A DNA stretch of 64,000 nt from an uncultured Acidobacteriota bacterium (GCA_963773905.1 CAVZDB010000008.1:506905-570904); one strand, 5' to 3'. Positions 32,448 to 61,084 are shown, counted from the stretch's first letter. Program-made: numbers and translations. The notes: generated by a model from the sequence alone, not told the origin.

Positions 32448-32763
32448 AGAGACATTCCTTCCTGACGTCTGTCAATGACGCCAAAAAGCCGGCTTGTGGG
32501 AGTGCCGTGCACTATATCACAGGCCTGGCGGGTCAAGGCCCCGCCGGCAGGACCCGCCGAAAGAGGCGTGCATGCCGGGGAAAACCCGAGCAGTTGAACG
32601 AAGCGGGGCAAGATCCTGAGAGACTAGGCGGTTAGCGCCGCAGGATCGACTGCCCAGCGGGGCGAAAGAAGGACACTGACCTTGTGGGGGCCTCCACTCT
32701 GGCCGTTCGGGCAGGTGTCATTCCCGGGGGGCGCGGCCGATAATCGCTCAAATACCGACACCC

Positions 32764-40771: not shown

Positions 40772-43327
40772 CTACTTCATTCCCTCGGCCACGAAGAGAT
40801 CTGCCTCCCACCTCGTGTAACCGTAGACGTAGGACTTGCCGTCGGGCGTCGGAATCACCCTGATCAAGCCCACGTCGCTCGCCGGCGAACCTGAGAATTC
40901 CTTCCAGAGCTCGCGGCGACCGGAGGAGAGATCCAGCCGATACACCTTGTAGGACTTGATCGAGCCCTCGCCGACGAAAACCGACCCTTGATCGGTGGAC
41001 CATCGAATGATGTCGAGGCCCTCCGCACCGGGCACGGGCCGAGCCGGACCGCCGTCGACATCGAAGAGGAAGGTCTTCCCGTCGGCTCCCGCGGCGAACA
41101 GGGTCTTGCCGTCCGGAGAAAGAGCCGCGCCCCGCCAGGCACTGCCTTCCGGCGTGATTGGCCGCGCTTTGCCGCTCTCGATCTCGAGAGCGTAGAGCCG
41201 AACCTTCTGGCCTGGCTCGATGGCCCCGATGAGAACCCGCTTTCCGTCCGGAAAGAAGAAGCTCTGGCCCGTTCCCAATATCTTCAGGCTCCCGAGCGAC
41301 ACCGTGCGCGGCTGGCCCGCCCCGGTCGGCAGCAGAGCAAGCTGGGAGGGGGCGTCGTCCGAATGGGAAAGGGCCCATTGCCCGTCCGGGGACAGCGCGA
41401 GGGCCACGCCGTCGCCGAGCCTCACCGGGGGCGAGCCATCGGTCTTGCGCTTGTAAACCGACTTGTTGGGGCCGCCTCCCTGGCCGGCCTCGGTGAACAG
41501 AAGGAGCGATCCATCCGCCGCGAGGTCGGCCGGGACCGAGCCGTCGAGCCACGACAGGGAGCGTTCTTCGGCCTGGCCGGTGAACCGGCCGATCATCTCC
41601 CTCACTTCGACGGTCAGATCCAGAAGAACCCGCCCGTCCCGGGAGACATCATCCAGGGTGAAGTCTCCGGGGAACGAGGCGACGGAGCGCTTGCGGCCGG
41701 AGAGGCTCACGGCCTGGATCGTGGTCATGCCGTCCCGAACGTCGTTGAACCAGAGTTCGTCGCCTCGAGGCGACCATCGGAACTCATAGGGAACCCTCAG
41801 GATGCTCCTCTCGTGGCCGGACAGGTCCGTGACGAACACATCGCTGTCGTTGCGACCCGAGACCAGCCATCCGGGCCGCTCGCTGAAGGCGATGAGATCG
41901 CCGTTCGGCGAGATGAACCCGCCGCCCATCAGTCCCGACGACTCGACAAGGACCTTTCCGATCGGGAACTCCAGGCGCGCCCTTCCGTTCACGCCGTGGA
42001 TGACGGCGAGATTCTTTCCGTCGGGAGCCCAGTCGGCCGTCCCGACGTTCTCCAGCAGCTCCCGAGGCGCGCCCCCGCCGGCCAGCGGTACCGTCGCGAG
42101 GGTCCCGCCACGCCTGGTACCTGCCAGGATCGCGAGCTCTCCCGAAGACGAGATGGACATCACGTTGGCCCTCGGCAGGCCGAGCGGTCTGGGCTCGCGC
42201 GTGCCGGGCCGCGTCGAAAAAAGCTCGAGAGATCCGTCCGCATACACGATCTGGCCGTCGGGGGCGAAACGGGCATCGGTGACCGTAGCCCGGCGAAACG
42301 TGATCTGTCGGAGTGTCGGGTGAGCGGAGAACCGCGCCTTCCACAGGGGCTGTCCAGCAAAGACCCCGGCCCCGATCGCCACAGCAAAGGCGAGTCCGAG
42401 CGCGGGCGCCGGAAGCCGGATCCCTCTCCGCGCGACGCCGGGCGCCACGGCAGGCAGCGACGATTCCGATAGATGGTCCCGCACCGTCGCGAGCTCGCGC
42501 GCCAGGTCCTTCGTCGAGGCGTAGCGGCCCTCGGGGTCCTTGGCGAGGCAGCGGTCGGCGATCCAGCGCAGCGGGGCCGGAACTTGCGGGTTGAGCTGCG
42601 CGATCGGCTCGGGCTCCGTGTTCAGAATCGCGCCGAGCGTGTCGATGGCGGTCTTCTTCTGAAACGCCCGCCTTCCCGTCGCCATCTCGTGGAGCACCGA
42701 CCCGAACGAGAACTGATCCGACCGGAAGTCCAGAGCCTCTCCGCTGACCTGCTCGGGCGACATGTAACCCACCGTGCCGACGACCACACCGGGCGTCGTT
42801 CCCGTCATCGTTGGCAGGGCCGATCCCTCGCCGCTCCCTGACATGGTGGAGGTCAGCTTCGCCAGGCCGAAGTCCAGGATCTTGACCAGGCCGTCCCTGG
42901 TGACCATCACGTTCTCGGGCTTCAGATCCCGATGCACGATCCCCGCTTCGTGCGCCTTGGCCAGGCCCTCGGCGACCGAGGTGGCGAGCTGGAGCACTCG
43001 CTTCACCGGCAAGGCGCCGGAGGCCAGCAGCTCCCGCAGCGTCTTGCCGTCGACCAGCTCCATCGCGATCCAGGAGACGCCGTCGGTGGACCCGATGTCG
43101 TAGATCGTGACGATGTTGGGATGGTTGAGGGCCGAGGCCGAACGTGCCTCCTTCTCGAACCGCTTCAGACGCTCGGGATCCGAGGCGACGGCCGCCGGCA
43201 GCACCTTGATCGCCACTTCGCGCGAGAGCCGCTCGTCTCTCGCCCGATACACCTCGCCCATCCCGCCAGCGCCAAGAGGGGCGACGATCTCGTAGGGACC
43301 CAACCGAGAACCGGCCGAAAGCTTCAC
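40772..43327 (-). CDS. Ser/Thr protein kinase fused to TolB-like (WD40-like/PD40) beta-propeller domain, paralog 1 (intact)
   Basis: Hanks kinase (HRDLKPENVMV, DFGLAK, YMSPEQ), TM segment, then PD40-type repeats ('WAPDGKNLA', 'SPDGQW', 'SPDGKTL', 'TPDGKSY'). Confidence 0.85.
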   Translation of the reverse strand: MKLSAGSRLGPYEIVAPLGAGGMGEVYRARDERLSREVAIKVLPAAVASDPERLKRFEKEARSASALNHPNIVTIYDIGSTDGVSWIAMELVDGKTLRELLASGALPVKRVLQLATSVAEGLAKAHEAGIVHRDLKPENVMVTRDGLVKILDFGLAKLTSTMSGSGEGSALPTMTGTTPGVVVGTVGYMSPEQVSGEALDFRSDQFSFGSVLHEMATGRRAFQKKTAIDTLGAILNTEPEPIAQLNPQVPAPLRWIADRCLAKDPEGRYASTKDLARELATVRDHLSESSLPAVAPGVARRGIRLPAPALGLAFAVAIGAGVFAGQPLWKARFSAHPTLRQITFRRATVTDARFAPDGQIVYADGSLELFSTRPGTREPRPLGLPRANVMSISSSGELAILAGTRRGGTLATVPLAGGGAPRELLENVGTADWAPDGKNLAVIHGVNGRARLEFPIGKVLVESSGLMGGGFISPNGDLIAFSERPGWLVSGRNDSDVFVTDLSGHERSILRVPYEFRWSPRGDELWFNDVRDGMTTIQAVSLSGRKRSVASFPGDFTLDDVSRDGRVLLDLTVEVREMIGRFTGQAEERSLSWLDGSVPADLAADGSLLLFTEAGQGGGPNKSVYKRKTDGSPPVRLGDGVALALSPDGQWALSHSDDAPSQLALLPTGAGQPRTVSLGSLKILGTGQSFFFPDGKRVLIGAIEPGQKVRLYALEIESGKARPITPEGSAWRGAALSPDGKTLFAAGADGKTFLFDVDGGPARPVPGAEGLDIIRWSTDQGSVFVGEGSIKSYKVYRLDLSSGRRELWKEFSGSPASDVGLIRVIPTPDGKSYVYGYTRWEADLFVAEGMK

Positions 43328-45863
43328 TTCAATCCCTCGAGCACGAAGAGATCCGAAAGCCAGCGTTCGTACGTGTGAACGTAGGACTGCCCGTCCCGAG
43401 AGAGACGAACCTTGCCCCAGAGGTCGCCGGGGCTCGGTCCCAACTGGAGGGGCTGCAGCTCCTTGAAGAGCCGCCGCTGGCCGGTCGACCGATCGAGCAA
43501 CCAGATCTTGCCCGGGGAATCGTCCCTTTGAAGATAGAGAGCCCTACCGTCGATGCTCCACTGAGTCGGGAGATCGCCCGACAGAAGTCCCTGGATGGGA
43601 AGTGCGTCACCCCCCGTCGACGGGATAGAGCGCGGCGACTCCGTCCCGCAGACCGACGACGAGCTTCCCGTCCGGCGAGACTGCCTTCGCAAACCGAATC
43701 ATCGGGACGCCCTCTGGTGTGACCGGAGCTGGCGGAGATCCCTTCACGGATTGGACGAAAATGCGCTCTGGATGACCCGGCTGCTGCGCGGTAAAAAGGA
43801 ACCCTTCTCCGTCCGGTAGCCAATCGACCCCGAACGCCCCCGGATACTCGAGTCCGTCGCTCGGGAGGTTGCGCGTTTCGCCCGATGTGGACTGCAACCG
43901 AATGCTTGGCGCGAAGAACTCCGGGCGGCACACCGCCCACTTCCCGTCCGGAGACAGTGCCGAGCAGAACCCCTCGCCCAGCGGCACGGCGGCGGACCCG
44001 TCCGTCTTGCGGACGTAGCTCATCGCGCTTTCCCATCCCGGCTCCTTCTCGGCGAAGAGCAGCAGCCTGCCATCCGCCGACAGATCCAGCGGCACCGTGG
44101 CGTCGAGCCACGTGTATCCGTGCTCGTGCTCGTCGCCGGGAAACCGCCCGAGAACCTCCCACCGCTCGGAGCCACGCTCGAAGAGTGCCCGGCCTTCGCG
44201 GGAAATGTCGAACAGACTGAAGTCTCCAGGCAGGGAGATGAGCGCTCGCTCCCGGCCGGCAAGCGTCGTCGCGAACAGGTTGGTCGAGCCATTGACGATC
44301 CGGGTGAACCAGATTCGTCGCCCACCGGGCGACCAACCGAACTCGCCTCCCCCGGTGGCCAGCTTCGTCGCGGTCTTGCTCCGGTCCACGACGACCAGTC
44401 CGACGCCGGACTCACGGGCGACGACGAGATCACCCCGGGGCGAGACCCGAATGCGACCTCCACATTTTTCGCAGACCGTGTTCCCGATGGGGAACTCGAC
44501 CCGAGGTCCATTGCCCCCTGTTCGCACGATGGCCAGGCTCTTCCCGTCGGGCGCCCAGTCCGCTTGGGCGACGTCGCGTTCGCGCACTCGCGGCTCTCCG
44601 CCTCCTAGAGACGCGATCGCAAGAACCTGGGCGCCGTCGGATTCCCGCATCAACGCCATCTCGCCCGATGTCGAGACGGACAGGATGACCGCGTCGAAGA
44701 TGCCGAGAGATCGCGACCCGTGGCTGCCCGGCCGCGTCTGCAGGAGCTCCAGCTTCTCGCCGCCTCGCCCCACGCTGTAGACGATGGTCTCGCCGTCCGG
44801 CTCGAACCGCGCGTTGTGGATGTTCTCCTTCTTAAACGTCACCTGCTGGAAGCGGGGCACCGAGACGTTCTTCGGCCGCCAGAGCCAGCGGGCCGCGAGG
44901 GCCCCGATCGCAAGCGAGATCGCCATAGCCGCGAGCACGAGAGCGCGAAGAGAACGGCGCGGCCGATCGATCGCGACTGAGCCGCCGGACGTTGCGGCCT
45001 CGAACAGGCGGTCGCGGACCGTGGCGAGCTCGCGCGCCAGGTCCTTGGTCGAGGCGTAGCGATTCTCGCGGATCTTTCGCGAGGCAGCGCTCGGCGATCC
45101 AGCGCAACGGGGCCGGCACTTGCGGATTGAGCTGCGCGATGGGCTCCGGCTCCGTGTTCAGGATCGCGCCCAGCGTGTCGATGGCGGTCTTCTTCAGGAA
45201 GGCACGCTTGCCCGTCGCCATCTCGTAGAGCACCGACCCGAACGAGAATTGATCCGACCGAAAGTCCAGGGCCTCGCCGCTGGCCTGCTCCGGCGACATG
45301 TAGCCGACCGTGCCGACGACGACCCCCGGCGTGGTTCCCGTCATCGTGGGCAGATGCGAGCCCTCGCCGCTGCCCGAACCCGTCGAGCTCAGCTTGGCCA
45401 GACCGAAGTCCAGGATCTTGACCAAGCCGTCCCTGGTGACCATCACGTTCTCGGGCTTCAGGTCCCGATGCACGATCCCCGCCTCGTGCGCCTTGGCCAG
45501 GCCCTCGGCGACCGAGGTGGCGAGCGGGAGCAGGCGCTTCACCGGCAACGCGCCGGAGGCCAGCAGCTCTCGCAGCGTCTTGCCCTCGACCAGCTCCATC
45601 GCGATCCAGGAGACGCCGTCGGTAGAACCGATGTCGTAGATCGTGACGATGCACGGGTGGTTCAGGGCCGAGGCGGCGCGGGATTCCTTCTCGAAGCGCT
45701 TGAGCCGCTCGGGATCCGAGGCGACCGCCGCGGGCAGGACCTTGATCGCCACCTCGCGCGCCAGCCGCGTGTCCCGCGCGCGAAAGACCTCGCCCATCCC
45801 GCCCGCGCCGAGCGGCGAAAGAATCTCGTAGGGCCCCAGTCGCGATCCGGCCGCCAGGGTCAT
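43324..45863 (-). pseudogene. Ser/Thr kinase-beta-propeller paralog 2, >=2 frameshifts
   Basis: The kinase domain (ORF 44832..45863) is ~90% identical to paralog 1. The propeller continues in ORF 43607..44938 and ORF 43324..43692. One shift is at a C6 run 43610-43615, another near 45060-45100. Confidence 0.75.
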
Positions 45864-45927
45864 TCGAGGACCTGAACCGGACTCTCGCCGGTTTGGGACG
45901 CACGCCTCGGCGATCGGCGGAAGGCGC

Positions 45928-48434
45928 TCACGGCTTCAGGCCGTCGATCAGCCAGAGGTTCGAGAGCGATTGGCCAATTTCGTAGACGTAACCTCGTCCA
46001 TCCGGGGTCATCCATGCAGCCGACGAGCCCGGAAGCTCCTTGACGAGCTCCCGCCGTCCCGACGCCAGGTCGACACGCGCGATGCTGCCGTCCGTCGTCG
46101 AACGAACGTACAGAGATCGCCCGTTCGGGGTAAAGCAAATCACTTCTTCATTCTGCCCGCTCGCCGGCTCGGGAACGGTCGCTCCCTTCTCGATGGGATA
46201 GAGCGACCAGACGCCAGCCGAACGGTTCCAGGCCGCGACGAGCTTTCCGTCCGGCGAGACCGCGTGCCAACCGAAAGGAAGGAAGACTCCGTCGGCGGTC
46301 ACCGGATGCGCGTCTTCACCCTCCAGAGTCACGCTGTAGAGCCGATGCTTGTCGTCCGCCGTCTTCCCGGCCAGGAGCACCCGCTTCCCGTCGGGGAAAA
46401 AGGTCCCTCCACTGTCGAACTCGGCACCGGGGGGGCCTTGAGGACTCGGGGCAGGCCCGCCCCTGTGGGCAGAAGGATCGTGTCGTCCCCACGCCGGCAC
46501 AGCGCCCACTTCCCATCCGGTGAGAGCGCCATGGCCCCTCCGTCGCCCAGTCGGATTGCGGGGGAGCCGTCCATTCGGCGCAGGTACACGCCCGCTCTCG
46601 ATTCGCCGCCTCCCTCGATGAAGAGAACCGTCTGGCCGTCCGGGGAAATGTCCGCGGGAAACGACTCGTTGAGCCAGGAAAGGTCCCTCTCCCGGGTTTC
46701 GCCCGATGCCTGTCCTTTCATCTGGGCCCGGTTCAGGGTCCGCTCCGCCAGAATGCGCTCGTCCTTGCCGATGTCGTGCAGCAGGAACTTCCCGGGAAGC
46801 GTCGCGATCAGTCGCGCGGGGCCGCCGACCTTCATTGCGAGGACCTCGGTCGTGGCGCCCGCAGCCGACAGCATCCAGATCTGATCGGAGCTCGTCGACC
46901 AGCCGTAGCCCGAGACGCTGCCCTCGAAGACCTTTCTCTGCTTTCCCGTCCCTGGATCCACGAGCATCAGCGACTCGGGACTTGAAATCAGGATTCCATC
47001 TCCGCGGGGCGAGAACCGGGGACGGCCCAGCCAGCCTTTCTTCTCGAGTAGAGCCTTGCCGAGCGGATACTCCAGACGTTGGCCGGTTCCGTCGGTCGCA
47101 ACTACCGCCGCGAGTCCGGTCCCGTCCGGACTCCACTCCGCGAAAAAGACGCGTTCGAGCAGCTCCCGTGGCGCACCTCCCGCGAGGGGCACTTCCGCCA
47201 GCGTACCGGGCCAGCTGGGGCCCCCGAGCAGGATTGCCATCTCGCCGGAGGAGGAAATGGACTCGATGTCCGCGTTCATCCCCAGTGGGCGGGACTCGGG
47301 AGCGTCCAGCCGAGTCGAGAGCAGCTCGAACGGCTTGAAATCCCGTGTGACGCCATAGACGACCGTCTGGCCGTCGGGCGCGAACCGCGCCGATAGGACC
47401 GTCGCATCACCGAAGGTGAGCTGCTTGAAGCGGGGGAGGGATGGCGCAGGCGCCTTCCAGAGCAGCTTGCCGGCCAGGAGTCCGAGAGCGAGCGCGACGG
47501 CCAGTGCCGCAGCCGGCACGAGGATCGGCCGCTTCCGTGCGGTCGCCGCCACTTCGCTGGTCGCCGACGCCTCGGTGAGGCGTTCTCGGAGGGTCGCGAG
47601 ATCGCGCGCGAGGTCGCCGGTGGTCCCATAGCGGCCCTCCGGCTCCTTGGAGAGGCAGCGCTCGACGATCCAGCGCAGGGGAGCTGGGACCGACGGGTTG
47701 ATCGACGCGATCGGCGGCGGATCCTCGTTCAGGATCGCGCCGAGCGTGTCGATCGCCGTCTTCTTCTGAAATGCCCGCTTGCCCGTCGCCATCTCGTAGA
47801 GGATCGAGCCGAACGAGAACTGGTCCGACCGAAAGTCCAGGGCCTCGCCGCTGGCCTGCTCCGGCGACATGTAGCCGACCGTTCCCACCACGACACCGGG
47901 CGTCGTCCCCGTCATCGTCGGCAGGGCCGATCCCTCGCCGCTGCCGGACATCGTCGAGGTCAGCTTCGCCAGACCGAAGTCCAGCACCTTGACGAGGCCG
48001 CTCTTCGTCACCATCACGTTCTCGGGCTTCAGGTCCCGGTGCACGATCCCGGCCTCGTGCGCCTTGGCCAGGCCATCGGCAATCTGCGGCGCGATCTGCA
48101 GCAGCCTCTTGACCGGCAGGGCGCCGCTCGCCAGCAGCTCCCGCAGCGTCGCCCCCTCCACCTTCTCCATCGCGATCCAGGAGACGCCCCCGGTGGAACC
48201 GATGTCGTAGATCGTGACGATGTTGGGATGGTTGAGGGCCGAGGCCGAACGTGCCTCCTTCTCGAACCGCTTGAGCCGCTCGGCGTCCGAGGCGACGGCC
48301 GCCGGCAGCACCTTGATCGCCACTTCGCGAGAGAGTCGCTCGTCCTTCGCCCGATACACCTCGCCCATGCCCCCGGCGCCGATGGGAGAGAGGATCTCGT
48401 AAGGGCCCAGGCGCGTTCCCGTCTCGATCGTCAT
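45928..48434 (-). pseudogene. Ser/Thr kinase-beta-propeller paralog 3, one frameshift
   Basis: Kinase and most of the propeller lie in ORF 46329..48434; the C-terminal ~160 aa lie in the ORF 45928..47136 frame. The shift is at a G7 run 46429-46435. Confidence 0.75.
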
Positions 48435-48444
48435 CGCGTACTCG

Positions 48445-51407
48445 TCAGAACGAGACGCGGACCGCCGCGCGGAAGAGCCGTGCTCCTGAGCGATCGGTGA
48501 TCAGGCCGTAGTTGGGGTTGTTCGAGGCTTGATTCGGATCGTAGATGGTATCCGGGTAGCCGACCTGTTGCTGATCCCTCCACGTCGCGTCCTGCGCGGT
48601 GCGAATCTGGTTGTTGAAGAGATTGAAGACGTAGGCCTGAAGCGTGGCTGTGACCGGGCCGAGGAGGATCGGATACGAGAGCGTGAGGTTGGAGTCCCAC
48701 TCCATCGGGAGGCGGCCGGCGTAGCCCTTGGGAACGAGGTGGATCGTCCCGCCGTAGAGGTCGTTGAAGTACCCGTACTGGTTGAACGGAGGACCGGAGC
48801 GCAGCCAGGTCTGAAGCCCGGCCGACAGGCCGAACGGTGCGGTGTAGAAGCCGTCGACCCGCAGCTGGTGCGGCCGGTCCAGATAGAGGCGGCCATAGGC
48901 GTTGTGAAGAAGCTGCGGATAGTCGAAGTCGGCATTGATACCCGGATCGGTCTGGCCTCCGAAGAGCTCACTGACCTCGCCGTCGTAGTTGCCGCGCAGG
49001 GACGAGAACACGTAGGACGCCTGAATCCAGAGACTTGGCGAGGGAGAGGCGCGGGCCACGAGCTCGATGCCGCGATAGATCCGCTTGGCCTCCGGCATCG
49101 GGGGCGCGCCAAACAGACTCTCCCCGGTGTTGCAGTTGTTAAAGTCGCCGTTGAGCCCGGTGCAGTAGTGGAAGTCGCCGCGGGAGATGGGGCCGTCCGA
49201 GCCCGGATTCATGAGGCCGCAGCTCGACCCTCCGTTCTCCGGAGCGCTGTAGTCCAGGTCGCAGCGGTCTTCGATCGCGCTCGAGAGTGTGCGATAGGTC
49301 GCCTTCAACCCCACAGAGAACTTGCCGCCCGATAGAGTCTTCTCGACTCCGAACGTCAGTTCCTCCTGCGAGATCCCCTTCAGGCCGTCGTCCACCGGTT
49401 CCCCGTTCGAGTTGCCCGAGATGTTCGAGGTCTCATGGTGGATGACGTTTTGGTCTTGAGCCACCCCGACCGGATCGAAGTTGTAGGTTTGGGCGAAGAA
49501 GTTGCCGCTGTAGACGCGAATGGCGAGGTCCGTGGGCAGGCCGTAGGAGAAACGCCCGGCGAACGCATAGACCTTCGAAGACCCGTCGCCCAGGGGATCC
49601 CAGACGATGCCCAATCGCGGTTGCCACTCGTTCGTCCGGATGACGGTCTCGTTCAGGAAGTTGATGACCCATTCGCGGTCGAAGCGAAGGCCCGCGTTGA
49701 CCGTGAGGTTCGGCAACCCCTTCCAGGAGTCCTGAAGGTAGGCGCCGAAGTCTCGCGTGACCGCCGAGCTGGCCCAGTTCGTTGGGGTCAGGTCTTCGGT
49801 GCTGGTGGCGTAGAAGTCGTGGCGGTAGTAGTCCTGCCCGTACTCGTTGTAATGCCGGACGCGCTGTTTGCCCGAGAAGGCGGTTACGGTGTCCGTCTGT
49901 CCCGCCTGATAGTCCCCGCCGACCTTGAGCTCGTGGGAGCCCCGGTAGATCGCCGCGTCGGCCCGAATCTGGTCGCGGTGCGACTTGCTGTTGTTGGCGG
50001 GCCCGAACACGAAGCCGAGCCCCCCTTGCACGGAGTTCGGCTCCCCCGGCGTGTCGCAGGGCGCGTCGGGGGTTCCGACTCCCTCTGGGCAGGTCCAGTC
50101 CTCGGTGCGCACCTGCAGCCCCGGGCCCGTGGGCACGAGGCTGTACCGGTCCTGATGCCGCGCGGCCTGCAGCGTGAGCAGGGCCGCAGACCCGAAGAGC
50201 TGATTCGCGCGCAGGCCGAAGTCGGTTCCGCCGATGGAGCGGGTGGATTCCCAGGTTCCGGGGTCCGGATTGGAGATCGGCGGCCCGCCCTGGCGTGGAT
50301 CGGAGAGATTCGCCCCGTCATTCGTGGTCGGGTCGGCGAAGACGCTGCCGACGAGGGTCGTGCCTGCGGCGAGGTTCCAGGTCAGCTTTCCCGAGTAGAG
50401 GTTGTCGGTGTTTCCGACCGGAAACTCGAGTGTGTCGGGTACGAGCTCGCTCGAGACGTAGCGCGAGATCTGCGCGGGATTGGTGACCCGGTCGTACGCG
50501 CCGAAGAACCAGAGCCGGTCCTTGACGAGAAATCCCCCGAGGTCGACCCCGTAGTCCGCGCGCGTGTAGCTCGCGATCCGCATTCCGGTCAGGTCCGAGT
50601 CGACTCCGGGCTCGAACGTGCGCTCGGCCTGCAGCGCATCCGAGTCGTAGTAGACGAAGCCCTCGCCGTGGAAGTTATTGCCGCCCGACTTGGTGATCAC
50701 GTTGATGACGCCGCCGAGCGCCCGGCCGTACTCGGCCTGGTAGCCGCCGGTCTTGACCTCGACCTCCTGGATGAACTCGTTGTTGATGGCCTTGCCCTGC
50801 ATTCCCTTCAGGACGTTGGTGGTGTTGACTCCGTCGATGACCCACTGGTGTCCACCGAGGTCGAGCCGTAGATCGAGAGCGCGAGGGAGCGTCCCTGCGT
50901 TTCGCCCAGGTCCGGCAAGACCCCGGGATTCGAACGCACGATGTCCGCGTAGTTGCGAGCGACGGGAAGGTGCGTGATCACCCGGCTGCTGTAATTCGTG
51001 CCGGTCGTCGTCGACGTCGTGTCCACCAGGGGCGTCGTGCCCGTGACTGCCACCGACTCCTGCAATTCGGGCTCCAGCGTGAAGTCGGCGGTGACCGTCG
51101 CGTCGAGCGTGACCGTGGCCTCCATCTCGGCGTCGTGGAATCCGGGCATCGAGGCCTTGACTATGTAGACCCCGGGAGGCAGCGCGGGGAAGCGAAACCG
51201 CCCATCCCCTTCGGTCGTCGCGGTGCGCACGCCCTGCAGATTCGGACTCGAGATCTGGACAGCGACGCCGGGCAGCGGACCCCGAGCCGTGTCGCGGGCC
51301 GTGCCACTGATGGTGCCCGTGGTCGTCTGCGCGTCGACCGGCGCGTACAGAAGCAGCCACAGACTGACGGCCGCCAGGGCCTCGCCGAAGCCCATCCTTT
51401 GTGCCAA
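48445..51407 (-). pseudogene. TonB-dependent receptor with N-terminal carboxypeptidase-regulatory-like domain, one frameshift
   Basis: Signal peptide and the CarbopepD_reg-like domain lie in ORF 50808..51407. The plug ('NEFIQEVEVKTGGYQAEYGRALGGVINVITKSGGN') and barrel lie in ORF 48445..51360, ending in a C-terminal Phe. Total span is not a multiple of 3; the shift is near 50855-50875. Confidence 0.8.
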
Positions 51408-51435: not shown

Positions 51436-52893
51436 TTATTTCACGAAGTCGCGGATCCTCTGCTCCACATACGGGAAAAACGGATTGCAGTTGAGCCGCA
51501 TGAACTGATCGATCGAGACCGTGAGCACGCCGCGTTCTCCGCGCGGCGCGAGCAGGCCGAGCCGGAGTCCGTAGCTCACGCTCATGTCCGGCGCGATGCC
51601 GAAGAGCGGGTCGTCGGGGCGGAACGGCACCGCGAGGTGCGAGAGCGAGAAGATCTGGGGCGGCCACGCCATCCCGAGCGGAATCACCGTGGGCTCCGTC
51701 GCGTGCGGAGCCTCGACGCGGGCGACGACGTCCCGGGTGTCGGCCGACGCGTTCGTCACGAGCGCCAGCCGGTAGGATCGTGACGCGTCGGAGAAGAGCC
51801 CGGCGACCTCGCGGTCGTAGGTGCGCTTGAGCAGCGGGGCCACGTTCTCGAACCGGTTCTGGTCGAAGAGCACGAGCTCGCTGCCGTTCTCGGGAAGGTA
51901 CCGGAAGAGGCGGTCGAAGGTGGCGGGCGTCTCGACGGTGGAGTCCACGAGGGAGACGAACGCCAGGATCGGCGCGAGATCCTTGATGCGGCCCGAGACC
52001 GACGCGTGCTGCACGGCGGTCGCGATCTCGGCGGTCAGCTCGGCGGTCTGAATGGCCGCGTGCGCGGGGAACGAGTCGTACTTGAACGGGATGTACTCGG
52101 GCAGCACGTCCATCCAGCGCGACCGCGCGAAGTAGGGGATCGCGCCGACCGCCACGACGGCGCGCGCCAGGCCGGCGAACGGCGACACGCCGATCATCGG
52201 CGAGAAGAGGAGGATCCGATCGGGCCTCGGTAGCCGCGGCTGGTCGAGCGCGTCGAGGGCGTATTGGACCGAGAGCGCGCCGCCGTTGGAGTATCCCCCC
52301 AGCACGAGCGGGACCTTCGCGCCGACGCGCTGCCTCACGTGCCGGACGCCCAGCCGGACGGCCGCGCGCCAGTCCTTCCAGTTCGCCTCCGTCAGCGCGC
52401 CGGGAACCGTCCCGTGTCCCGGCATCCGCAGGCAGAGCGCGTAGTAGCCGAGCGATCGCAGCAGCTCCGCCTCGGCCTTGACGCTGTAGGGCGAGTCGGT
52501 CAGGCCGTGGATCAGGAGCGCGCCGCCGCGGACCTCGCCCTCGGGGAGGAGCTCGTAGGTTCGGTTCCAGTTCTTCGGGAACTTCTCCGGGTTGATCGGG
52601 CTGTCGGGCCAGTAGCGGTTGGAGAGGGTCCGGTCCTCGGGCGCGGCGGCCGGCAGCACGGTCTCGTTCATTTGCCGGAAGACCGCGTCCTCGCGGCGCA
52701 GGTACTCGTCGAGCGTCCAGGCGTCGGTGATGTCCCGGGCGGTGACCTCGGCGCTCAGCGCGTGGTGCCAGGGCTTGAGGGGCGGGAGCCGCCGGCTGGC
52801 GAAGGCGCGCGCGAAGAGGAGCGTGGCGAAGACGAGGAGGACCCCGGCCGCGGCGTACAGCATCCACTTCAGGAGGCGCCGGAGCGCCTTCAT
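51436..52893 (-). CDS. Membrane-anchored alpha/beta-hydrolase family protein
   Basis: N-terminal TM helix; 'LLIHGLTDSPYS', 'GGYSNGGAL' nucleophile elbow. Confidence 0.7.
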   Translation of the reverse strand: MKALRRLLKWMLYAAAGVLLVFATLLFARAFASRRLPPLKPWHHALSAEVTARDITDAWTLDEYLRREDAVFRQMNETVLPAAAPEDRTLSNRYWPDSPINPEKFPKNWNRTYELLPEGEVRGGALLIHGLTDSPYSVKAEAELLRSLGYYALCLRMPGHGTVPGALTEANWKDWRAAVRLGVRHVRQRVGAKVPLVLGGYSNGGALSVQYALDALDQPRLPRPDRILLFSPMIGVSPFAGLARAVVAVGAIPYFARSRWMDVLPEYIPFKYDSFPAHAAIQTAELTAEIATAVQHASVSGRIKDLAPILAFVSLVDSTVETPATFDRLFRYLPENGSELVLFDQNRFENVAPLLKRTYDREVAGLFSDASRSYRLALVTNASADTRDVVARVEAPHATEPTVIPLGMAWPPQIFSLSHLAVPFRPDDPLFGIAPDMSVSYGLRLGLLAPRGERGVLTVSIDQFMRLNCNPFFPYVEQRIRDFVK

Positions 52894-53261
52894 CCGCCGC
52901 TCTCGAGCCAGGAGAGCGCGAGGTCGGGTTCCGTGAAGACCTCGGTCCGGGCGCCCGCCCTCTCGGACTTCTCGACGAAGGCCTTCGCGATGCCGAACTG
53001 GGCGCCGCGCCGGACGAGGATGGCGATGGGGTGTCCGGCGAAGAGTCCCTGACCCGCTCGCGACGCGAACGTGGCGACCTCCGGGGGGGTCGCCAGATAC
53101 TCGAGCTCGCGCACGTCCATCAGGACGGGCATGCCTGGCTGCAGGCGCGGATCCTCTCCGAGCTTCTGGAGCGCCTCGGTCGTGGACGCGAAATCGTCCC
53201 GTCCCCAGGCTCGGACCCGGGCCAGAGACTCACCGGGTGTGACGCGAAGCTCGAAGGGCAT
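52890..53261 (-). CDS. Hypothetical protein (123 aa)
   Basis: Clean ORF, translationally coupled to the downstream hydrolase (ATGA); no known domain. Confidence 0.5.
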   Translation of the reverse strand: MPFELRVTPGESLARVRAWGRDDFASTTEALQKLGEDPRLQPGMPVLMDVRELEYLATPPEVATFASRAGQGLFAGHPIAILVRRGAQFGIAKAFVEKSERAGARTEVFTEPDLALSWLESGG

Positions 53262-53354: not shown

Positions 53355-56300
53355 CTATCGCGCGGCGGTCGCCTTGGTGTCGTGCCTCCAGAAGAAGGTC
53401 GGCGCCGCCTCCTCGCGCGGCCAGACCTTCTTCAGCGTCTCGGCCTCCCAGACCTCGCCGTTCTTGACGACCCAGTGGATCTTCAGGGTGTTGTGGATGT
53501 CCGCGAGCGGGTCCGCGTCGAGGACGATGAAGTCGGCGAGCTTGCCGGTCTCGATGGAGCCGAGGTCCGGCGCGAAGCCGATCTTGTCGGCGGCGAGGAT
53601 CGTGGACGCGCGGATCGCCTCCATCGGCGTCATCGCGGAGTCCTTCGTCGGCCCGCCCTCGCCGGCCATCGCCCAGATCTCCCAGTGCGGACCGAGGCCC
53701 TGCACCTGGCCGTGGGCGCCCAGCGACACGTTGCCGCCGGCGCGCAGGACCTGCGCGGCCCCGGTGGCGACCGTGGGGAAGGTGTACTCGGACGGCCAGA
53801 TCCACGGGTAGCGGCGCGCCTTCTGGTCGATGATGTCGTGCGGCGTGAAGCGATTGAGCTTCGCGTCGTCGTGCGCGTTGTGCGTCTGCCAGTAGTACTC
53901 CTCGCCCCACGGGCCGCCGTACGCGACGAGGAGCGTGGGCGTGTAGTAGGTCCCGGACTTCGCGACGAACTGGATGACGTCGTTCTGCAGCCGGACCGGC
54001 AGCGCGTGCTCCCACGCGGTGAAGCCGTCCATCACCATCGTCATGTCGGTCGCGAGCTCGCCGCCGCCCTCCGCGGTCAGCAGCATGTGCTCGTCGCGGC
54101 ACGCCTGTGCGAAGTACATGCGCTGCGAGCGGCGCGGCTGCTGGTAGACCTTGATCATGCGCGCGCCGTAGGCCTTCATCCGCTTGACCTGGTGCTTCGC
54201 GTCGTCGAGGTTGTTGACCTCCGCGAAAACGTCCTCCTGCTGGCCGCCGTAGAGGACGTCGCCCGACGAGTAGATGCGGGGCCCGACCATGAGCCCCGCC
54301 TCGACTTCTTCGCCCTGCGCGAAGACGTCGAGCGACGGCGCCGACGGGTCGTAGACCGTGGTCACGCCGTAGGCGAGGTTCGCCACGTACTCCCACTTCG
54401 TCTCCGGGAAGAGCTCGAAACCCGAGTAGTGCAGGTGCGCATGCGTGTCGATGAAGCCGGGGATGACGGTCTTGCCGGTTCCGTCGAAGGTCCGCGCGCC
54501 GGAGGGGACCTGGACGCTCCCGGAGGGGCCGACCGCGGCGATGCGATTGTCCGTCACCACGATGTCCGCGTTCGGGAGGACCTCGTCGCCCTTCATCGTC
54601 ACGACGCGCGCGCCGTGGAGCACGTACGAGCCGGTCGGCTTCGCACGCGGCTCGCTCACCGCGATCGCGATCGTCTCGGCCGTGGGGACCCGCGCCTCCT
54701 GGACCTTCTCCTTTTCCTTCTCCTCCTTCTCCTTGTCGCTCGATGAAGCCGAGTCCTTGGCGCCCTTTTCAGCCGCCTCCTTCTTCTCCTTCTCCTCGGC
54801 CTTGCGGCGCTGCTCGCGCGCGAACTCGACCGCGCCGGTGAGCGGCAGGCGGTAGAAGGTGTTGCCGAGCGCCCACGTGATCGTGCGTCCTCCGTCGGCC
54901 CAGCGGACGTAGCCGCCGGCGTCGTCGGAAAGCCGGTAGACGGGGAGCGCGCCCTCCTTGAGGCCGACCTCGGGCGGCTCCTTCAGCAGGATGCCCGGCA
55001 GCGCGGTGACGTAGACGTTGTCCCGCGAGGTGAAGACGACCCACTGGCCGTCGGGAGACGGCACGATGTCGTCGACGGGCGGGAAGCGCATCAGGTGGCG
55101 GCGGTCCGTTCCGTCGAGCCTTACGGAGACGAGGTCGTTCTTCGGGTCGTCGGTCGGCTTCTTCCGTTCGACCGGATCGCGGTAGTAGAGGCGCGTGCCG
55201 TCGCCGCTCCAGAAGACCTCCGGATGGAAGTGGAGCGCATTGGCGAGCTTGATCACGACGACCGGCTTGAGCTCGCCGCCGGCGGCGTCGACCACGACGG
55301 CCTCGAAGAACTCCTCCTCCTCGGGCTGATGCCCGCGGAACTCGAGTCCGGACCCGCGCACGAGCGCGATCTTGTCGCCCTTCGGCGACCACGCGGGGTT
55401 GGCGTAGTGCCCGGCGACCTTCGTCAGCTTCACCGGCGCGCCCCCGGCGGCCGGCGCCTTCCACAGGTGGCCGCCCTCGGCGTCGCTCCACGAGACGTAG
55501 GCGATCGACTTCCCGTCGGGCGACCAGGCCGGGCCGTACTCGCGCTTCGGCAGCGCGGCGTCGTCCTTCGTGAGCCGCTTCGGCGTCCCCGAGGCCTTTG
55601 CGCCGTCGAGCGCCTGGAGCCAGATGCGTCCGAACGCCTCGAAGGCGATCGTCTTCCCGTCCGGCGACTGGCTGGGCCAGCGCAGGATCTTCGCCACCAC
55701 CGGCCCGGACTCCACCTTCTCCTGCCAGGTCACCCGCGGCGCGACCGCGAGCGAGACCGGCGCCGTGAACGGGATGTCGCGGATCTCCAGGCTGGCGAGG
55801 TCGAGGCGGACGATCTTGCCCTTGTTGGAGAAAACGAGCGATTTGCCGTCGGGCGTGAAGGCGTAGTTGGGCCAGAGGTCCGCCTGCGCGAACCCCTCCT
55901 CCTCGTCGCGCGTGACGCCGCGGGCGAGGATGCGCTCGGATCCGGTGGGGAGATCGCGCGCGACGAGAACGCTTTCGCCGTCGCGCCGCGAGACGTACGT
56001 CATCGTCTTGCCGTCGGGGGAGAGCGCCGGACGGACCGCACCGCCGAAGCCTTCCGCGACCGGGAAGGTGTCGGCGAGCTCGCGGTCGTAGCGCCAGATC
56101 TGCCACAGGCCGTCGTTCAGATCGGGCGTGTAGCTGAACTTGCGCTGCCGCGCCGAGAAGTAGATGGAGCGGCCGTCCCGCGAGACGACCGCGCCGCCCG
56201 CGTTGTTGACGTCGTCCGAGGACGTCAATTTGATGCCGCCTCCGCCCTCGCGGTTGTAGATCCAGAGCTCGACGGGCGGGATGCCCGCGCGCTTGCCGGT

Positions 56301-56816
56301 CTCCTTGCGCGCGATCAGGTAGTTGCCGTCCGGGGTCCAGGCGGCGCTGCGGACGTACTCGTCCTTCTCGGCGGAGATGGCGCGCGGATTGCCGCCGTCG
56401 GCGTCCATGATCCAGACGTTCTCAATGCCGCTGCGGTCGCTCGTGAACGCGATCGTCTTGCCGTCGGGGGAGTAGCGCGGGTGGTAGTCCCACGCGGGGC
56501 CCGAGGTCAACGGCCTGGCCCGGCCGCCCGCGATGGGCATGGCGTAGATGTCGCCGAGCAGGTCGAACGCCACGGTCTGGCCGTCCGGCGACACGTCGAG
56601 GGACATCCACGTCCCCTCGCTCGCCTCGAAGGCGATCGTGCGGGCGTCGGCTCGGGGCTTGTTGATGTCCGCGGCGACGTCGGGCTTCTTGTCCTGGGCT
56701 CCTTCCTTCGGGGGGTCCGCCGCGCGAGCGGCCGGGGCGGGCGAGAGGGTGAAGAGGACGGTCAGCGAGAGGATCGCTGCGAACGTGGGCAGCCTCTTGC
56801 GCATCGGGGCCTCCAT
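53355..56816 (-). CDS. TolB-like beta-propeller (PD40 repeats) fused to amidohydrolase domain, secreted (1153 aa)
   Basis: Signal peptide; >=2 PD40 propeller regions; a KE-rich linker; a C-terminal metal-dependent amidohydrolase ('VIPGFIDTHAHL', '...GAHG...'). Confidence 0.85.
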   Translation of the reverse strand: MEAPMRKRLPTFAAILSLTVLFTLSPAPAARAADPPKEGAQDKKPDVAADINKPRADARTIAFEASEGTWMSLDVSPDGQTVAFDLLGDIYAMPIAGGRARPLTSGPAWDYHPRYSPDGKTIAFTSDRSGIENVWIMDADGGNPRAISAEKDEYVRSAAWTPDGNYLIARKETGKRAGIPPVELWIYNREGGGGIKLTSSDDVNNAGGAVVSRDGRSIYFSARQRKFSYTPDLNDGLWQIWRYDRELADTFPVAEGFGGAVRPALSPDGKTMTYVSRRDGESVLVARDLPTGSERILARGVTRDEEEGFAQADLWPNYAFTPDGKSLVFSNKGKIVRLDLASLEIRDIPFTAPVSLAVAPRVTWQEKVESGPVVAKILRWPSQSPDGKTIAFEAFGRIWLQALDGAKASGTPKRLTKDDAALPKREYGPAWSPDGKSIAYVSWSDAEGGHLWKAPAAGGAPVKLTKVAGHYANPAWSPKGDKIALVRGSGLEFRGHQPEEEEFFEAVVVDAAGGELKPVVVIKLANALHFHPEVFWSGDGTRLYYRDPVERKKPTDDPKNDLVSVRLDGTDRRHLMRFPPVDDIVPSPDGQWVVFTSRDNVYVTALPGILLKEPPEVGLKEGALPVYRLSDDAGGYVRWADGGRTITWALGNTFYRLPLTGAVEFAREQRRKAEEKEKKEAAEKGAKDSASSSDKEKEEKEKEKVQEARVPTAETIAIAVSEPRAKPTGSYVLHGARVVTMKGDEVLPNADIVVTDNRIAAVGPSGSVQVPSGARTFDGTGKTVIPGFIDTHAHLHYSGFELFPETKWEYVANLAYGVTTVYDPSAPSLDVFAQGEEVEAGLMVGPRIYSSGDVLYGGQQEDVFAEVNNLDDAKHQVKRMKAYGARMIKVYQQPRRSQRMYFAQACRDEHMLLTAEGGGELATDMTMVMDGFTAWEHALPVRLQNDVIQFVAKSGTYYTPTLLVAYGGPWGEEYYWQTHNAHDDAKLNRFTPHDIIDQKARRYPWIWPSEYTFPTVATGAAQVLRAGGNVSLGAHGQVQGLGPHWEIWAMAGEGGPTKDSAMTPMEAIRASTILAADKIGFAPDLGSIETGKLADFIVLDADPLADIHNTLKIHWVVKNGEVWEAETLKKVWPREEAAPTFFWRHDTKATAAR

Positions 56817-59936: not shown

Positions 59937-59938
59937 AC

Positions 59939-61081: not shown

Positions 61082-61084
61082 GGG

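What the first reader, a model, noticed from the sequence alone, without database searches (positions are those of the whole stretch)
40772..51407. Operon of a TonB-dependent receptor followed by three tandem Ser/Thr kinase-beta-propeller paralogs with near-identical kinase domains
On the minus strand, a TonB-dependent receptor (51407-48445) is followed with 10- to 64-nt spacers by three paralogous genes, each a Hanks kinase, a TM segment and a TolB/PD40 propeller. The kinase domains are ~90% identical at DNA level, so opposite-strand ORFs 42774..43103, 45310..45639 and 47989..48210 encode near-identical artefact proteins. The extracytoplasmic propellers are diverged. This pattern fits gene conversion or recent duplication that keeps the signalling domain constant while the sensor domain diversifies. 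The array may be a family of receptors coupled to an outer-membrane importer. Two paralogs and the receptor carry frameshifts, at a C6 run (43610-43615), a G7 run (46429-46435) and near 50860.
Basis: seen in the sequence. Interest (0 to 1): 0.6.

Follow-up and report, generated by a model that had tools for sequence, protein, structure and literature searches.

The report
Receptor kinase array with homogenised kinase domains
Three neighbouring membrane kinases in a soil Acidobacteriota genome have old, very different sensor domains, but their kinase domains are kept alike by gene-to-gene copying; the reported frameshifts are most likely assembly errors.

Summary
On the minus strand an Oar-type TonB-dependent transporter (48445-51407) is followed by three paralogous receptor Ser/Thr kinases: g3 (45928-48434), g2 (43324-45863) and g1 (40772-43327). 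Kinase domains are 82-87% identical in DNA (85-91% protein). Ectodomains are only 38-43% identical.

The cause is gene conversion, not recent duplication.
- Each ectodomain has a closer ortholog in another genome (bootstrap 99-100%).
- Kinase domains group by genome.
- Kinase dS is 0.46-0.57, against a saturated 1.2-1.4 in the ectodomains.
- Site patterns in the kinase domain are mosaic (0 of 10,000 shuffles).
- Only nt ~100-850 of each gene is closer to a paralog; both flanks are closer to the ortholog.
- Intact arrays from other assemblies show the same pattern.

The ectodomain is a tandem double beta-propeller, not a single TolB propeller.

There are four frameshifts, not three. About 20 more break other genes in the window, so they are most likely assembly errors.

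Linkage to Oar-type transporters recurs in relatives. A wHTH-FHA regulator often heads such arrays, but none lies in this window. Function is inferred only. This is a new member of a large, annotated, uncharacterised family, with an interesting evolutionary pattern.

The parts
48445..51407 (-). Oar-type TonB-dependent outer-membrane transporter: signal peptide, CarboxypepD_reg N-terminal extension, Plug, 22-strand-type barrel, C-terminal Phe. It has one single-base frameshift.
   Evidence: Pfam hits. After adding one A, Plug scores 35.2 bits (cut-off 23.9), CarboxypepD_reg 67 bits and OMP_b-brl_4 117 bits. No STN domain was found. Repaired translation.
50842..50855 (-). Frameshift site in the transporter gene. 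The minus strand reads GTGGACACCAGTGG, and one A appears to be missing (expected GTGGACAACCAGTGG, giving VDNQWVIDG). It is not in a homopolymer run.
45928..48434 (-). g3: receptor Ser/Thr kinase (835 aa after repair), made of kinase, TM helix and periplasmic double propeller. It lies 10 nt after the transporter stop codon.
   Evidence: Pfam; repair. Its ectodomain groups with L014, L005 and L006 (100% bootstrap).
46429..46435 (.). G7 run (C7 on the coding strand) where g3 changes frame. Adding one C (or removing two) restores the frame.
43324..45863 (-). g2: receptor Ser/Thr kinase (845 aa after repair). It starts 64 nt after the g3 stop, and its own stop overlaps the g1 start (GTGA). It has two single-base frameshifts.
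   Evidence: Its ectodomain is 78% identical to L003_15991.
45068..45068 (.). Extra base in g2 (minus strand GATCCGCGAGAAT against GACCC-CGAGGGC in g1).
   Evidence: An M13 peptidase frameshift at ~1070 lies in a similar GCGCGAG context.
43610..43615 (.). C6 run (G6 on the coding strand) where g2 changes frame a second time. Removing one G restores VDGGDALPIQ.
40772..43327 (-). g1: intact receptor Ser/Thr kinase (851 aa, GTG start). Kinase domain aa 1-289, TM helix aa 307-333, periplasmic all-beta domain aa 336-851.
42478..43227 (-). Gene-conversion region of g1 (nt ~100-850 of the gene), where g1 is closer to its paralog g2 than to its ortholog.
   Evidence: identity to the paralog is 0.85-0.95 and to the ortholog 0.73-0.86 over nt 101-800. 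The order reverses in nt 1-100 and from nt ~900 on.
45014..45763 (-). Gene-conversion region of g2 (nt ~100-850 of the gene).
47586..48334 (-). Gene-conversion region of g3 (nt ~100-850 of the gene). In some blocks g3 matches g1 (nt 61-240 and 481-540), in one block it matches g2 (nt 541-600).
40775..42322 (-). Periplasmic sensor domain of g1: tandem double beta-propeller built from PD40/Tricorn-type blades.
   Evidence: AlphaFold2 pLDDT 94, pTM 0.90. Best Foldseek hits are double propellers (2ymu, LRP6) and TolB. PDB sequence hits to 2ymu and TolB.
51436..52893 (-). Alpha/beta hydrolase (Hydrolase_4, S33-like), 28 nt upstream of the transporter gene. It is a conserved upstream neighbour of g3-type kinases.
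   Evidence: Pfam. Synteny with L005, L006 and L014.
52890..53261 (-). Small ORF with no Pfam match. Its stop overlaps the hydrolase start. It is conserved in L006.
53355..56816 (-). PD40-propeller plus amidohydrolase protein (1153 aa), probably the first gene of the co-directional block.
   Evidence: Pfam. It is 73-88% identical to the syntenic genes in L005 and L006.

Best explanation
This is a co-directional block, probably one operon, in an Acidobacteriota (Thermoanaerobaculia-like) genome. It encodes a PD40-amidohydrolase, a small protein, an alpha/beta hydrolase, an Oar-type TonB-dependent transporter and three single-pass receptor Ser/Thr kinases.

Each kinase has a cytoplasmic PknB-like catalytic domain, one TM helix and a ~515-aa periplasmic tandem double beta-propeller.

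Shown here:
- The three propeller ectodomains belong to distinct lineages that are older than the species and are under purifying selection.
- An internal tract of each kinase domain (about nt 100-850) is repeatedly overwritten by gene conversion between paralogs. Kinase domains therefore evolve in concert within a genome and are decoupled from their sensors.
- This holds across the family, not only in this window.

Inferred:
- The different sensors feed one common cytoplasmic output. In many relatives the array is headed by a 220-aa winged-helix plus FHA regulator. That regulator is the likely shared phospho-dependent partner, working as EmbR does with PknH.
- The output probably controls the adjacent transporter and hydrolase genes.
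- Sharing one partner would explain why homogenised kinase domains are tolerated or favoured.

The four frameshifts are most likely assembly indel errors.
For: Architecture:
- Pfam domains.
- AlphaFold2 models with pLDDT 87 and 94.
- Foldseek matches the kinase to PknB/PknA (E 1e-21, TMt 0.8-0.88) and the ectodomain to double propellers and TolB.

Gene conversion:
- Kinase dS is 0.46-0.57. Ectodomain dS is 1.2-1.4, which is saturated.
- Informative sites in the kinase domain are clustered: 102 runs observed, and 0 of 10,000 permutations gave as few.
- Propeller NJ tree: g2+L003_15991 100%, the g3 group 100%, the g1 group 99%, the three window copies together 0%.
- Kinase tree: g1+g2 97%, the four kinases of one MAG on two contigs 99%, propeller-ortholog pairs 0%.
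- For the ortholog pair g1/L078_b, kinase and ectodomain are both 81% identical, so the kinase domain is not intrinsically slower.
- Paralog kinase dS (0.46-0.57) is lower than ortholog kinase dS (0.63-0.95).
- Sliding comparison shows the paralog closer only in nt ~100-850, and the ortholog closer on both flanks.
- Across 99 family members, kinase identity and ectodomain identity do not correlate (r = 0.00). Same-contig pairs have higher kinase identity (median 0.84 against 0.76, P = 4e-4).
- Intact arrays repeat the pattern: L081 has kinase 81-90% and ectodomain 33-47%; L078 has 88% and 43%.

Neighbourhood:
- An Oar-type transporter lies within 10 kb in 13 of 17 kinase-propeller loci.
- A wHTH-FHA regulator is next to arrays in L001, L002, L003, L007, L080, L081, L082 and L084.

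Frameshifts:
- The background of frameshifts across the window.
Against: - No wHTH-FHA regulator lies in this 64-kb window, so the proposed output partner is not shown for this genome.
- Transporter linkage is not universal: L005 and L006 have hydrolase followed by a g3-type kinase with no transporter, and L083 has none.
- The control set for the linkage count is weak, because many of the other-kinase loci come from Gram-positive bacteria, which do not have outer-membrane TonB-dependent transporters.
- Homogenisation is uneven. The middle kinase of L014 is only 74-76% identical to its neighbours.
- Kinase dS of about 0.5 means conversion is not very recent overall.
- No expression, phosphorylation or ligand data exist.
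- No sequencing reads were available, so real frameshift mutations cannot be strictly excluded.
Confidence: 0.7

Rival explanations
1. Recent tandem duplication followed by very fast, positively selected divergence of the ectodomains, with the kinase domain simply not yet diverged.
For: The genes are arranged in tandem. The kinase domains are similar and the ectodomains diverged.
Against: - Each ectodomain has a closer ortholog in another genome (78%, 60-85% and 55-81% identity, against 38-43% between the paralogs). Cross-genome groups have 99-100% bootstrap support.
- Ectodomain dS is saturated.
- Orthologous ectodomains have dN/dS of 0.17-0.31, which indicates purifying selection.
- The first 100 nt of the genes also follow the orthologs, not the paralogs.
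Confidence: 0.03
2. No gene conversion: the kinase domain is simply under much stronger purifying selection than the ectodomain.
For: Kinase dN/dS is 0.10-0.20 and ectodomain dN/dS is 0.41-0.56 between the paralogs. Catalytic domains are usually conserved.
Against: - Synonymous divergence is also 2-3 times lower in the kinase domain.
- Between orthologs the kinase is no more conserved than the ectodomain (81% against 81%).
- Kinase trees follow genomes rather than orthology.
- The nearest relative switches in blocks along the domain.
Confidence: 0.04
3. Cassette shuffling: the kinase 5' halves stay in place, and the ectodomain-encoding 3' halves are swapped in from a pool by recombination or horizontal transfer. 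This would decouple the two domain histories without conversion of the kinase domain.
For: - Arrays in different genomes combine ectodomain types in different orders and numbers.
- The correlation between the domain identities is zero across the family.
- Toxin-antitoxin genes are interleaved in some arrays.
Against: - The paralog-like tract is internal. The first ~100 nt and everything after nt ~900 follow the ortholog, which fits a conversion tract but not a 3' swap.
- Within the tract the donor alternates between the paralogs.
- The g3-type gene keeps its place next to the hydrolase in four genomes.
- Both processes may operate together.
Confidence: 0.12
4. Assembly or polishing artefact: reads mis-assigned between the paralogs created artificial similarity or mosaics, or the array is a mis-assembled repeat.
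For: The window clearly comes from an error-prone assembly with many indels.
Against: - Ectodomains at 52-54% DNA identity anchor each copy uniquely.
- The same synteny occurs in L014.
- Frameshift-free contigs from other projects show the same pattern (L081, L078).
- The pattern also holds for eight same-contig pairs.
Confidence: 0.03
5. The frameshifts are real. The operon is decaying into pseudogenes, or the G/C runs act as phase-variable switches for individual receptors.
For: - Two of the four sites are G/C runs of 6-7 bases.
- There are four frameshifts in 10.6 kb.
- Only 3 runs of 7 or more bases exist in the whole window.
Against: - About 20 further single-base frameshifts break unrelated enzyme genes across the window, at a similar density.
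- Two of the four sites here are not homopolymers.
- Sequence downstream of each shift is still conserved, free of stops and under constraint.
- Orthologs are intact.
Confidence: 0.07

Closest known systems
Mycobacterium tuberculosis PknD (receptor Ser/Thr kinase with an extracytoplasmic beta-propeller sensor)
   Same: - Single-pass topology with an N-terminal PknB-like Hanks kinase and a C-terminal beta-propeller outside the cytoplasm. The kinase fold matches PknB/PknA/PknE/PknF at 30-37% identity.
- The PknD sensor is described as a six-bladed propeller in PMC2877116.
   Different: - The ectodomain here is a ~515-aa tandem double propeller of PD40/Tricorn type, not a single NHL propeller.
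- It sits in a Gram-negative periplasm.
- The genes form tandem arrays with homogenised kinase domains and lie next to a TonB-dependent transporter.
Pkinase-PD40 architecture ('serine/threonine protein kinase / Tol biopolymer transport system component')
   Same: The domain order is the same. At least 8000 database relatives have E < 1e-20, many carrying exactly this name. PD40 is listed among the domains most often tethered to prokaryotic kinases (PMC2877116).
   Different: I found no experimental study of this family, and no description of its arrays, its transporter or regulator neighbours, or its concerted evolution. A search for the combined terms returned 0 papers.
PknH-EmbR pair (receptor kinase plus adjacent winged-helix/FHA transcription factor)
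   Same: In many relatives a Trans_reg_C + FHA protein is encoded directly upstream of the kinase array. This resembles the EmbR-PknH pairing through an FHA domain (PMC8636726).
   Different: - The regulator is only ~220 aa. Pfam finds Trans_reg_C and FHA but no BTAD domain.
- Several kinases may share one regulator.
- No such gene lies in this window.
Oar subclass of TonB-dependent transporters (Myxococcus xanthus Oar)
   Same: It has a CarboxypepD_reg N-terminal extension, a Plug and a barrel, and it lacks an STN domain. That is how PMC6434023 defines the subclass.
   Different: - The substrate and the direction of transport are unknown here. Oar is needed for secretion of the protease PopC.
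- Co-directional linkage with receptor kinases is not a described feature of Oar.
FecA-FecR-FecI type cell-surface signalling
   Same: Conceptually similar: an outer-membrane TonB-dependent protein encoded together with inner-membrane signal transducers.
   Different: There is no STN signalling domain and no FecR or ECF sigma gene in the operon. The transducers are Ser/Thr kinases.
Gene conversion in tandem receptor paralogs, e.g. mammalian TLR1/TLR6
   Same: Tandem receptor paralogs whose divergence is limited by gene conversion in part of the gene (PMC2077338). Paralogs are more alike than orthologs, which is the definition used for prokaryotic concerted evolution in PMC6053082.
   Different: This is a bacterial kinase family. 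The word 'kinase' does not occur in the text of the prokaryote survey that reports 26 concertedly evolving genes (PMC6053082). Here conversion is confined to an internal tract of ~750 nt and involves many paralogs.

Membership tests
Hanks-type (eukaryote-like) Ser/Thr protein kinase | Pkinase domain scoring above the Pfam gathering threshold | tested here: met
   g1 162.5 bits, g2 151.6 bits and g3 159.3 bits against a cut-off of 31.7.
Hanks-type (eukaryote-like) Ser/Thr protein kinase | Catalytic motifs: Gly-rich loop, VAIK lysine, HRDLKPEN catalytic loop, DFG, activation-loop SPE | tested here: met
   GAGGMGEV, VAIKVL, HRDLKPEN, DFGLAK and YMSPEQ are present in all three genes (alignment). 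They are invariant across the 99 homologs.
Hanks-type (eukaryote-like) Ser/Thr protein kinase | Bilobal kinase fold | tested here: met
   The AlphaFold2 model matches PknB, PknA and Stk1 with E 1e-19 to 1e-21 and TMt 0.77-0.89.
Hanks-type (eukaryote-like) Ser/Thr protein kinase | Phosphotransfer activity | not testable with these tools
   Needs a biochemical assay.
Oar subclass of TonB-dependent transporters | N-terminal extension with CarboxypepD_reg (PF13620), not STN | tested here: met
   CarboxypepD_reg scores 67-68 bits against a cut-off of 32.3. There is no STN hit. The definition is taken from PMC6434023.
Oar subclass of TonB-dependent transporters | Plug domain and TonB-dependent beta-barrel | tested here: met
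   After the one-base repair, Plug scores 35.2 bits (cut-off 23.9), TonB_dep_Rec_b-barrel 29.1 bits (cut-off 27) and OMP_b-brl_4 117.5 bits (cut-off 30). As assembled, the Plug is split by the frameshift and scores below the cut-off.
Oar subclass of TonB-dependent transporters | TonB box and dependence on ExbB/ExbD/TonB | not tested
   I did not align the TonB box. No ton genes were seen in the window.
PD40/TolB-like beta-propeller proteins | PD40 repeats and a beta-propeller fold | tested here: met
   - PD40 scores: g1 29.6 bits, g2 57 bits, g3 20.7 and 21.5 bits (borderline), against a cut-off of 20.9.
- Precomputed Tricorn_N and Tricorn_2nd hits in homologs.
- All-beta model with pLDDT 94.
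- Foldseek hits to double propellers and TolB at E ~1e-11 to 1e-16.
TolB (Tol-Pal system component) | Soluble periplasmic protein with an N-terminal alpha/beta domain, encoded in a tol-pal operon | tested here: not met
   The proteins are membrane-anchored kinases with no TolB N-terminal domain hit. No tol or pal genes are nearby. Only the repeat type is shared.
TonB-dependent cell-surface signalling (FecA/FecR/FecI type) | STN domain on the transporter plus an adjacent FecR-like anti-sigma factor and an ECF sigma factor | tested here: not met
   There is no STN hit. No sigma or anti-sigma genes were found in the ORFs scanned between 39.4 and 57.6 kb.
Concerted evolution by interparalog gene conversion | Paralogs within a genome more similar than orthologs between genomes | tested here: met
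   - Kinase identity is 85-91% within the window and 78-86% to the ectodomain-defined orthologs.
- The domain trees conflict with high bootstrap support.
- Replicated in L081 and L078.
Concerted evolution by interparalog gene conversion | Reduced synonymous divergence and mosaic tracts with defined borders | tested here: met
   dS is 0.46-0.57 in the kinase domain and 1.2-1.4 in the ectodomain. The runs test gave 0 of 10,000. The tract spans nt ~100-850 with ortholog-like flanks.
EmbR/PknH-like kinase-FHA regulator pair | An FHA-containing DNA-binding regulator encoded next to the kinase | tested here: not met
   Absent from this window (tblastn). Present next to arrays in at least 8 related loci.

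The most novel reading that the evidence does not exclude
Thermoanaerobaculia-type Acidobacteriota may use a previously undescribed, phosphorylation-based counterpart of TonB-dependent cell-surface signalling. In this reading, banks of receptor Ser/Thr kinases carry ancient, distinct double-propeller sensors that monitor the periplasm served by Oar-type transporters. All of them signal through one wHTH-FHA transcription factor. Gene conversion acts as the mechanism that keeps every kinase compatible with that single partner.
Probability: 0.2. Interest if true: 0.7.

Novelty: new member of a known kind. Interest (0 to 1): 0.4.

Why it matters
Bacterial receptor Ser/Thr kinases are far less well understood than two-component systems, and very few have known ligands or outputs. 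This family has at least 8000 database relatives and no experimental study that I could find.

The results give three things to work with:
- Clear, quantified concerted evolution limited to one domain of a bacterial signalling protein. A survey of prokaryotes found long-lasting concerted evolution to be rare (PMC6053082).
- A recurring gene neighbourhood of wHTH-FHA regulator, kinase array, Oar-type transporter and hydrolases. This turns an anonymous family into a testable pathway.
- A caution: frameshifts in this kind of assembly should not be read as biology.

Tried and rejected
- An exact-sequence look-up of g1 in public assemblies found no record, so the source genome stays unidentified.
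- A full-text search for kinase, TonB-dependent, propeller and Acidobacteria together returned 0 papers.
- The promoter and terminator scan of 40-58 kb was no better than shuffled sequence: 0 promoters, and 10 terminator-like sites against 8.1 expected. Operon structure therefore rests on spacing and strand only.
- Foldseek with the full-length model returned only kinase hits. A second model of the ectodomain alone was needed.
- ECF sigma and anti-sigma genes near the closest g1 ortholog (L078) suggested an ECF link. They are absent from the window and from the other contexts I fetched, so I dropped the idea.
- A search for the wHTH-FHA regulator in the window found nothing, even at E = 20.
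- I considered phase variation at the G/C runs and rejected it because of the window-wide frameshift background.
- The Fisher test on transporter linkage (13/17 against 0/39, P = 1e-9) is reported only with a caveat. The loci are not independent, and many controls are Gram-positive.
Full report
**1. What is in the sequence**

The window is 64-76% G+C. Its closest relatives are uncultured Acidobacteriota and Thermoanaerobaculia MAGs.

Between 40772 and 51407 the minus strand carries four genes.
- Transporter gene, 48445-51407. It has CarboxypepD_reg, Plug and OMP_b-brl_4/TonB_dep_Rec barrel domains and no STN domain. That is the architecture of the Oar subclass of TonB-dependent transporters as defined in PMC6434023.
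- g3 (45928-48434), g2 (43324-45863) and g1 (40772-43327). Each has a Pkinase domain and PD40 repeats.

The junctions are a 10-nt spacer, a 64-nt spacer and a 4-nt GTGA overlap.

Upstream on the same strand, with 28-nt or overlapping junctions, lie three more genes:
- an alpha/beta hydrolase (51436-52893);
- a small ORF (52890-53261);
- a 1153-aa PD40-amidohydrolase (53355-56816).

The block ends at g1, which converges on a homocysteine S-methyltransferase gene.

**2. Protein architecture**

An AlphaFold2 model of g1, built with 98 homologs, has mean pLDDT 87. It shows a kinase domain (aa 1-289), a TM helix (aa 307-333) and an all-beta C-terminal region. The kinase domain matches PknB, PknA and related kinases (E ~1e-21, about 36% identity). 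All catalytic motifs are present in all three genes.

Modelled alone, the 516-aa ectodomain reaches pLDDT 94 and pTM 0.90. Its best structural matches are tandem double propellers (2ymu, LRP6 and others), followed by TolB. Homologs carry precomputed Tricorn_N and Tricorn_2nd hits. The sensor is therefore a double propeller, not a single TolB-like propeller.

**3. The similarity contrast is real**

| Region | DNA identity | Protein identity | dS | dN/dS |
|---|---|---|---|---|
| Kinase domain | 82-87% (to 95% in 150-nt windows) | 85-91% | 0.46-0.57 | 0.10-0.20 |
| Ectodomain | 52-54% | 38-43% | 1.2-1.4 | 0.41-0.56 |

At this GC3, a pS of about 0.6 is what unrelated sequences would give, so the ectodomain dS is saturated.

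**4. Gene conversion, not recent duplication**

I compared the three genes with tandem arrays in related genomes.

Ectodomains form orthogroups that cross genomes.
- g2 is 78% identical to L003_15991.
- g3 groups with L014, L005 and L006.
- g1 groups with L001, L002 and L011, and is 81% identical to L078_b.
- Bootstrap support is 99-100%. The three window copies never group together.

Kinase domains group by genome instead.
- g1+g2 has 97% support.
- Four kinases from one MAG, spread over two contigs, have 99%.
- Three kinases of L003 have 99%.
- Pairs that are orthologs by ectodomain have 0%.

The kinase domain is not intrinsically slow. In the ortholog pair g1/L078_b, kinase and ectodomain are both 81% identical, with dS 0.72 and 0.64. 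Paralog kinases inside the window are closer than that.

Inside the kinase domain, the sites that tell the three copies apart are strongly clustered. Blocks where g1 matches g3, where g1 matches g2 and where g2 matches g3 alternate. I counted 102 runs, and none of 10,000 permutations gave as few.

A sliding comparison of each gene with its paralog and its ortholog defines the tract. The paralog is closer from about nt 100 to nt 850. The ortholog is closer in the first 100 nt and from about nt 900 onward. An internal tract with ortholog-like flanks is what gene conversion predicts. It argues against both recent duplication and a simple swap of the 3' half.

Kinase GC3 (0.88-0.91) is higher than ectodomain GC3 (0.79-0.82). 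That fits GC-biased conversion but does not prove it.

**5. The pattern is general in the family**
- Among 99 homologs, kinase identity and ectodomain identity are uncorrelated (r = 0.00).
- Pairs that I infer share a contig (from equal contig lengths; checked for P0041/P0104) have higher kinase identity than other pairs with diverged ectodomains: median 0.84 against 0.76, P = 4e-4.
- L081 has four intact tandem genes with kinase identity 81-90% and ectodomain identity 33-47%. All four share the genome-specific motif GEVWRAR.
- L078 shows 88% against 43%.

These contigs have no frameshifts, which argues against a polishing artefact.

**6. The frameshifts**

There are four: at 45068 and 43610-43615 in g2, at 46429-46435 in g3, and near 50850 in the transporter gene.

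Each is repaired by a single base. The repairs restore full-length proteins with conserved C-terminal motifs, a C-terminal Phe on the transporter, and a Plug domain that then scores above the cut-off.

A GC3-based frame segmentation, checked by reading the translations, shows the same kind of break in unrelated genes across the window:
- an M13 peptidase (3 shifts);
- an M14-like gene cut into 9 segments;
- an oxidoreductase cut into 6 segments;
- a homocysteine S-methyltransferase cut into 3 segments;
- an isocitrate/isopropylmalate dehydrogenase (at least 2 shifts).

That is roughly 20 shifts in 53 kb, about the same density as 4 in 10.6 kb. Many related MAGs are also full of such breaks. 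The simplest reading is assembly indel error. Only the reads could prove it.

**7. Gene neighbourhood and likely function**

An Oar-type transporter lies within 10 kb of 13 of 17 kinase-propeller loci. It often sits directly upstream with a spacer of 10-64 nt. L014 repeats the arrangement hydrolase, transporter, three kinases. The control set for this count is weak.

The PD40-amidohydrolase, small ORF, hydrolase and g3-type kinase order is conserved in L006 (L005 lacks a small-ORF hit), both without a transporter. The transporter is therefore a frequent partner but not an obligatory one.

A 220-aa protein with a winged-helix (Trans_reg_C) domain and an FHA domain is encoded directly upstream of arrays in L003, L007, L080, L081 and L082, upstream of a kinase gene in L001 and L002, and nearby in L016 and L084. 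None is present in this window.

From this I infer a working model. The double propellers bind different periplasmic ligands. The kinases autophosphorylate. A shared FHA regulator docks on the phosphothreonines, as EmbR does with PknH (PMC8636726). The regulator then controls the transporter and hydrolase genes. A single shared partner would explain why homogenised kinase domains are tolerated or favoured. None of these steps is shown.

**8. Comparison with what is known**

Kinase-PD40 is a common, annotated domain combination (PMC2877116) with at least 8000 database relatives. The nearest studied analogue is PknD of M. tuberculosis, which differs in propeller type and number. The transporter meets the tested Oar-subclass features. 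The locus does not meet the definition of FecA-type cell-surface signalling or of a Tol-Pal locus.

Domain-limited gene conversion in tandem receptor genes is known in animals (TLR1/TLR6, PMC2077338). The text of the survey reporting 26 concertedly evolving prokaryotic genes contains no occurrence of the word 'kinase' (PMC6053082).

**9. Verdict**

Recent duplication and real frameshifts are not supported. The genes are new members of a known but uncharacterised family. Interest is moderate. It rests on the clean case of domain-limited concerted evolution and on the recurring regulator-kinase-transporter neighbourhood.

Noticed in passing
window 332-2341 (+), 12467-14078 (-), 15959-18766 (-), 36902-38408 (+), 39730-40577 (+): Single-base frameshifts break many unrelated genes: an M13 peptidase (3), Iso_dh (at least 2), an M14-like carboxypeptidase gene (9 frame segments), an oxidoreductase (6 segments) and a homocysteine S-methyltransferase (3 segments). 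The window comes from an error-prone assembly. Two of the sites examined (about 1070 and 45068) share a GCGCGAG-like context.
   Followed up: partly
L081 9283-9942; L080 8061-8723; L082 9101-9781; L003 6674-7318; L007 2-523; L001 4726-5376, 16937-17578, 19221-19850; L084 15550-16206: A 220-aa winged-helix (Trans_reg_C) + FHA protein is encoded next to kinase-propeller arrays in many relatives, usually directly upstream of the first kinase. It is absent from this window. It is a candidate shared substrate.
   Followed up: partly
window 53355-56816 (-), 52890-53261 (-), 51436-52893 (-): A PD40-propeller plus amidohydrolase protein (1153 aa), a small ORF of unknown function and an alpha/beta hydrolase precede the transporter on the same strand. 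This trio is syntenic with g3-type kinases in L006 and, without a small-ORF hit, in L005; L014 shares the hydrolase.
   Followed up: partly
window 3604-5781 (+): Another receptor Ser/Thr kinase, with a CHASE sensor domain. It is 38% identical to g1 in the kinase domain.
   Followed up: no
window 24169-34983 and 58759-62320: A cluster of large proteins with SLH domains, combined with TIG, PKD and beta-helix domains, plus a DUF1800/DUF1501 pair. SLH-anchored surface proteins seemed to me an unusual feature for an Acidobacteriota genome.
   Followed up: no
L014 2955-5839 compared with window 48445-51407: The syntenic transporter of L014 is 62-76% identical in the N-terminal extension and Plug but only 38% in the barrel. 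Transporter genes may therefore also be mosaic between domains.
   Followed up: no
L080 18725-22442; L083 1804-2202 and 7589-8301: Toxin-antitoxin genes (PemK, PhdYeFM/PIN) are interleaved with kinase-propeller genes in some arrays.
   Followed up: no
window 40772-48434 (-): GC3 is higher in the kinase domains (0.88-0.91) than in the ectodomains (0.79-0.82) of all three genes. This fits GC-biased gene conversion or stronger codon selection.
   Followed up: partly
window 7755-13363 (-): An NRPS-like A-PCP-TE protein (878 aa) is followed by a single open frame that joins an isochorismatase domain and an aldehyde dehydrogenase domain.
   Followed up: no
L078 12706-13452; L079 4946-5692: In the closest g1 ortholog locus, the kinase pair is followed by a 248-aa protein with a CarboxypepD_reg domain only. 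It may be a remnant or a stand-alone form of the transporter's N-terminal extension.
   Followed up: no
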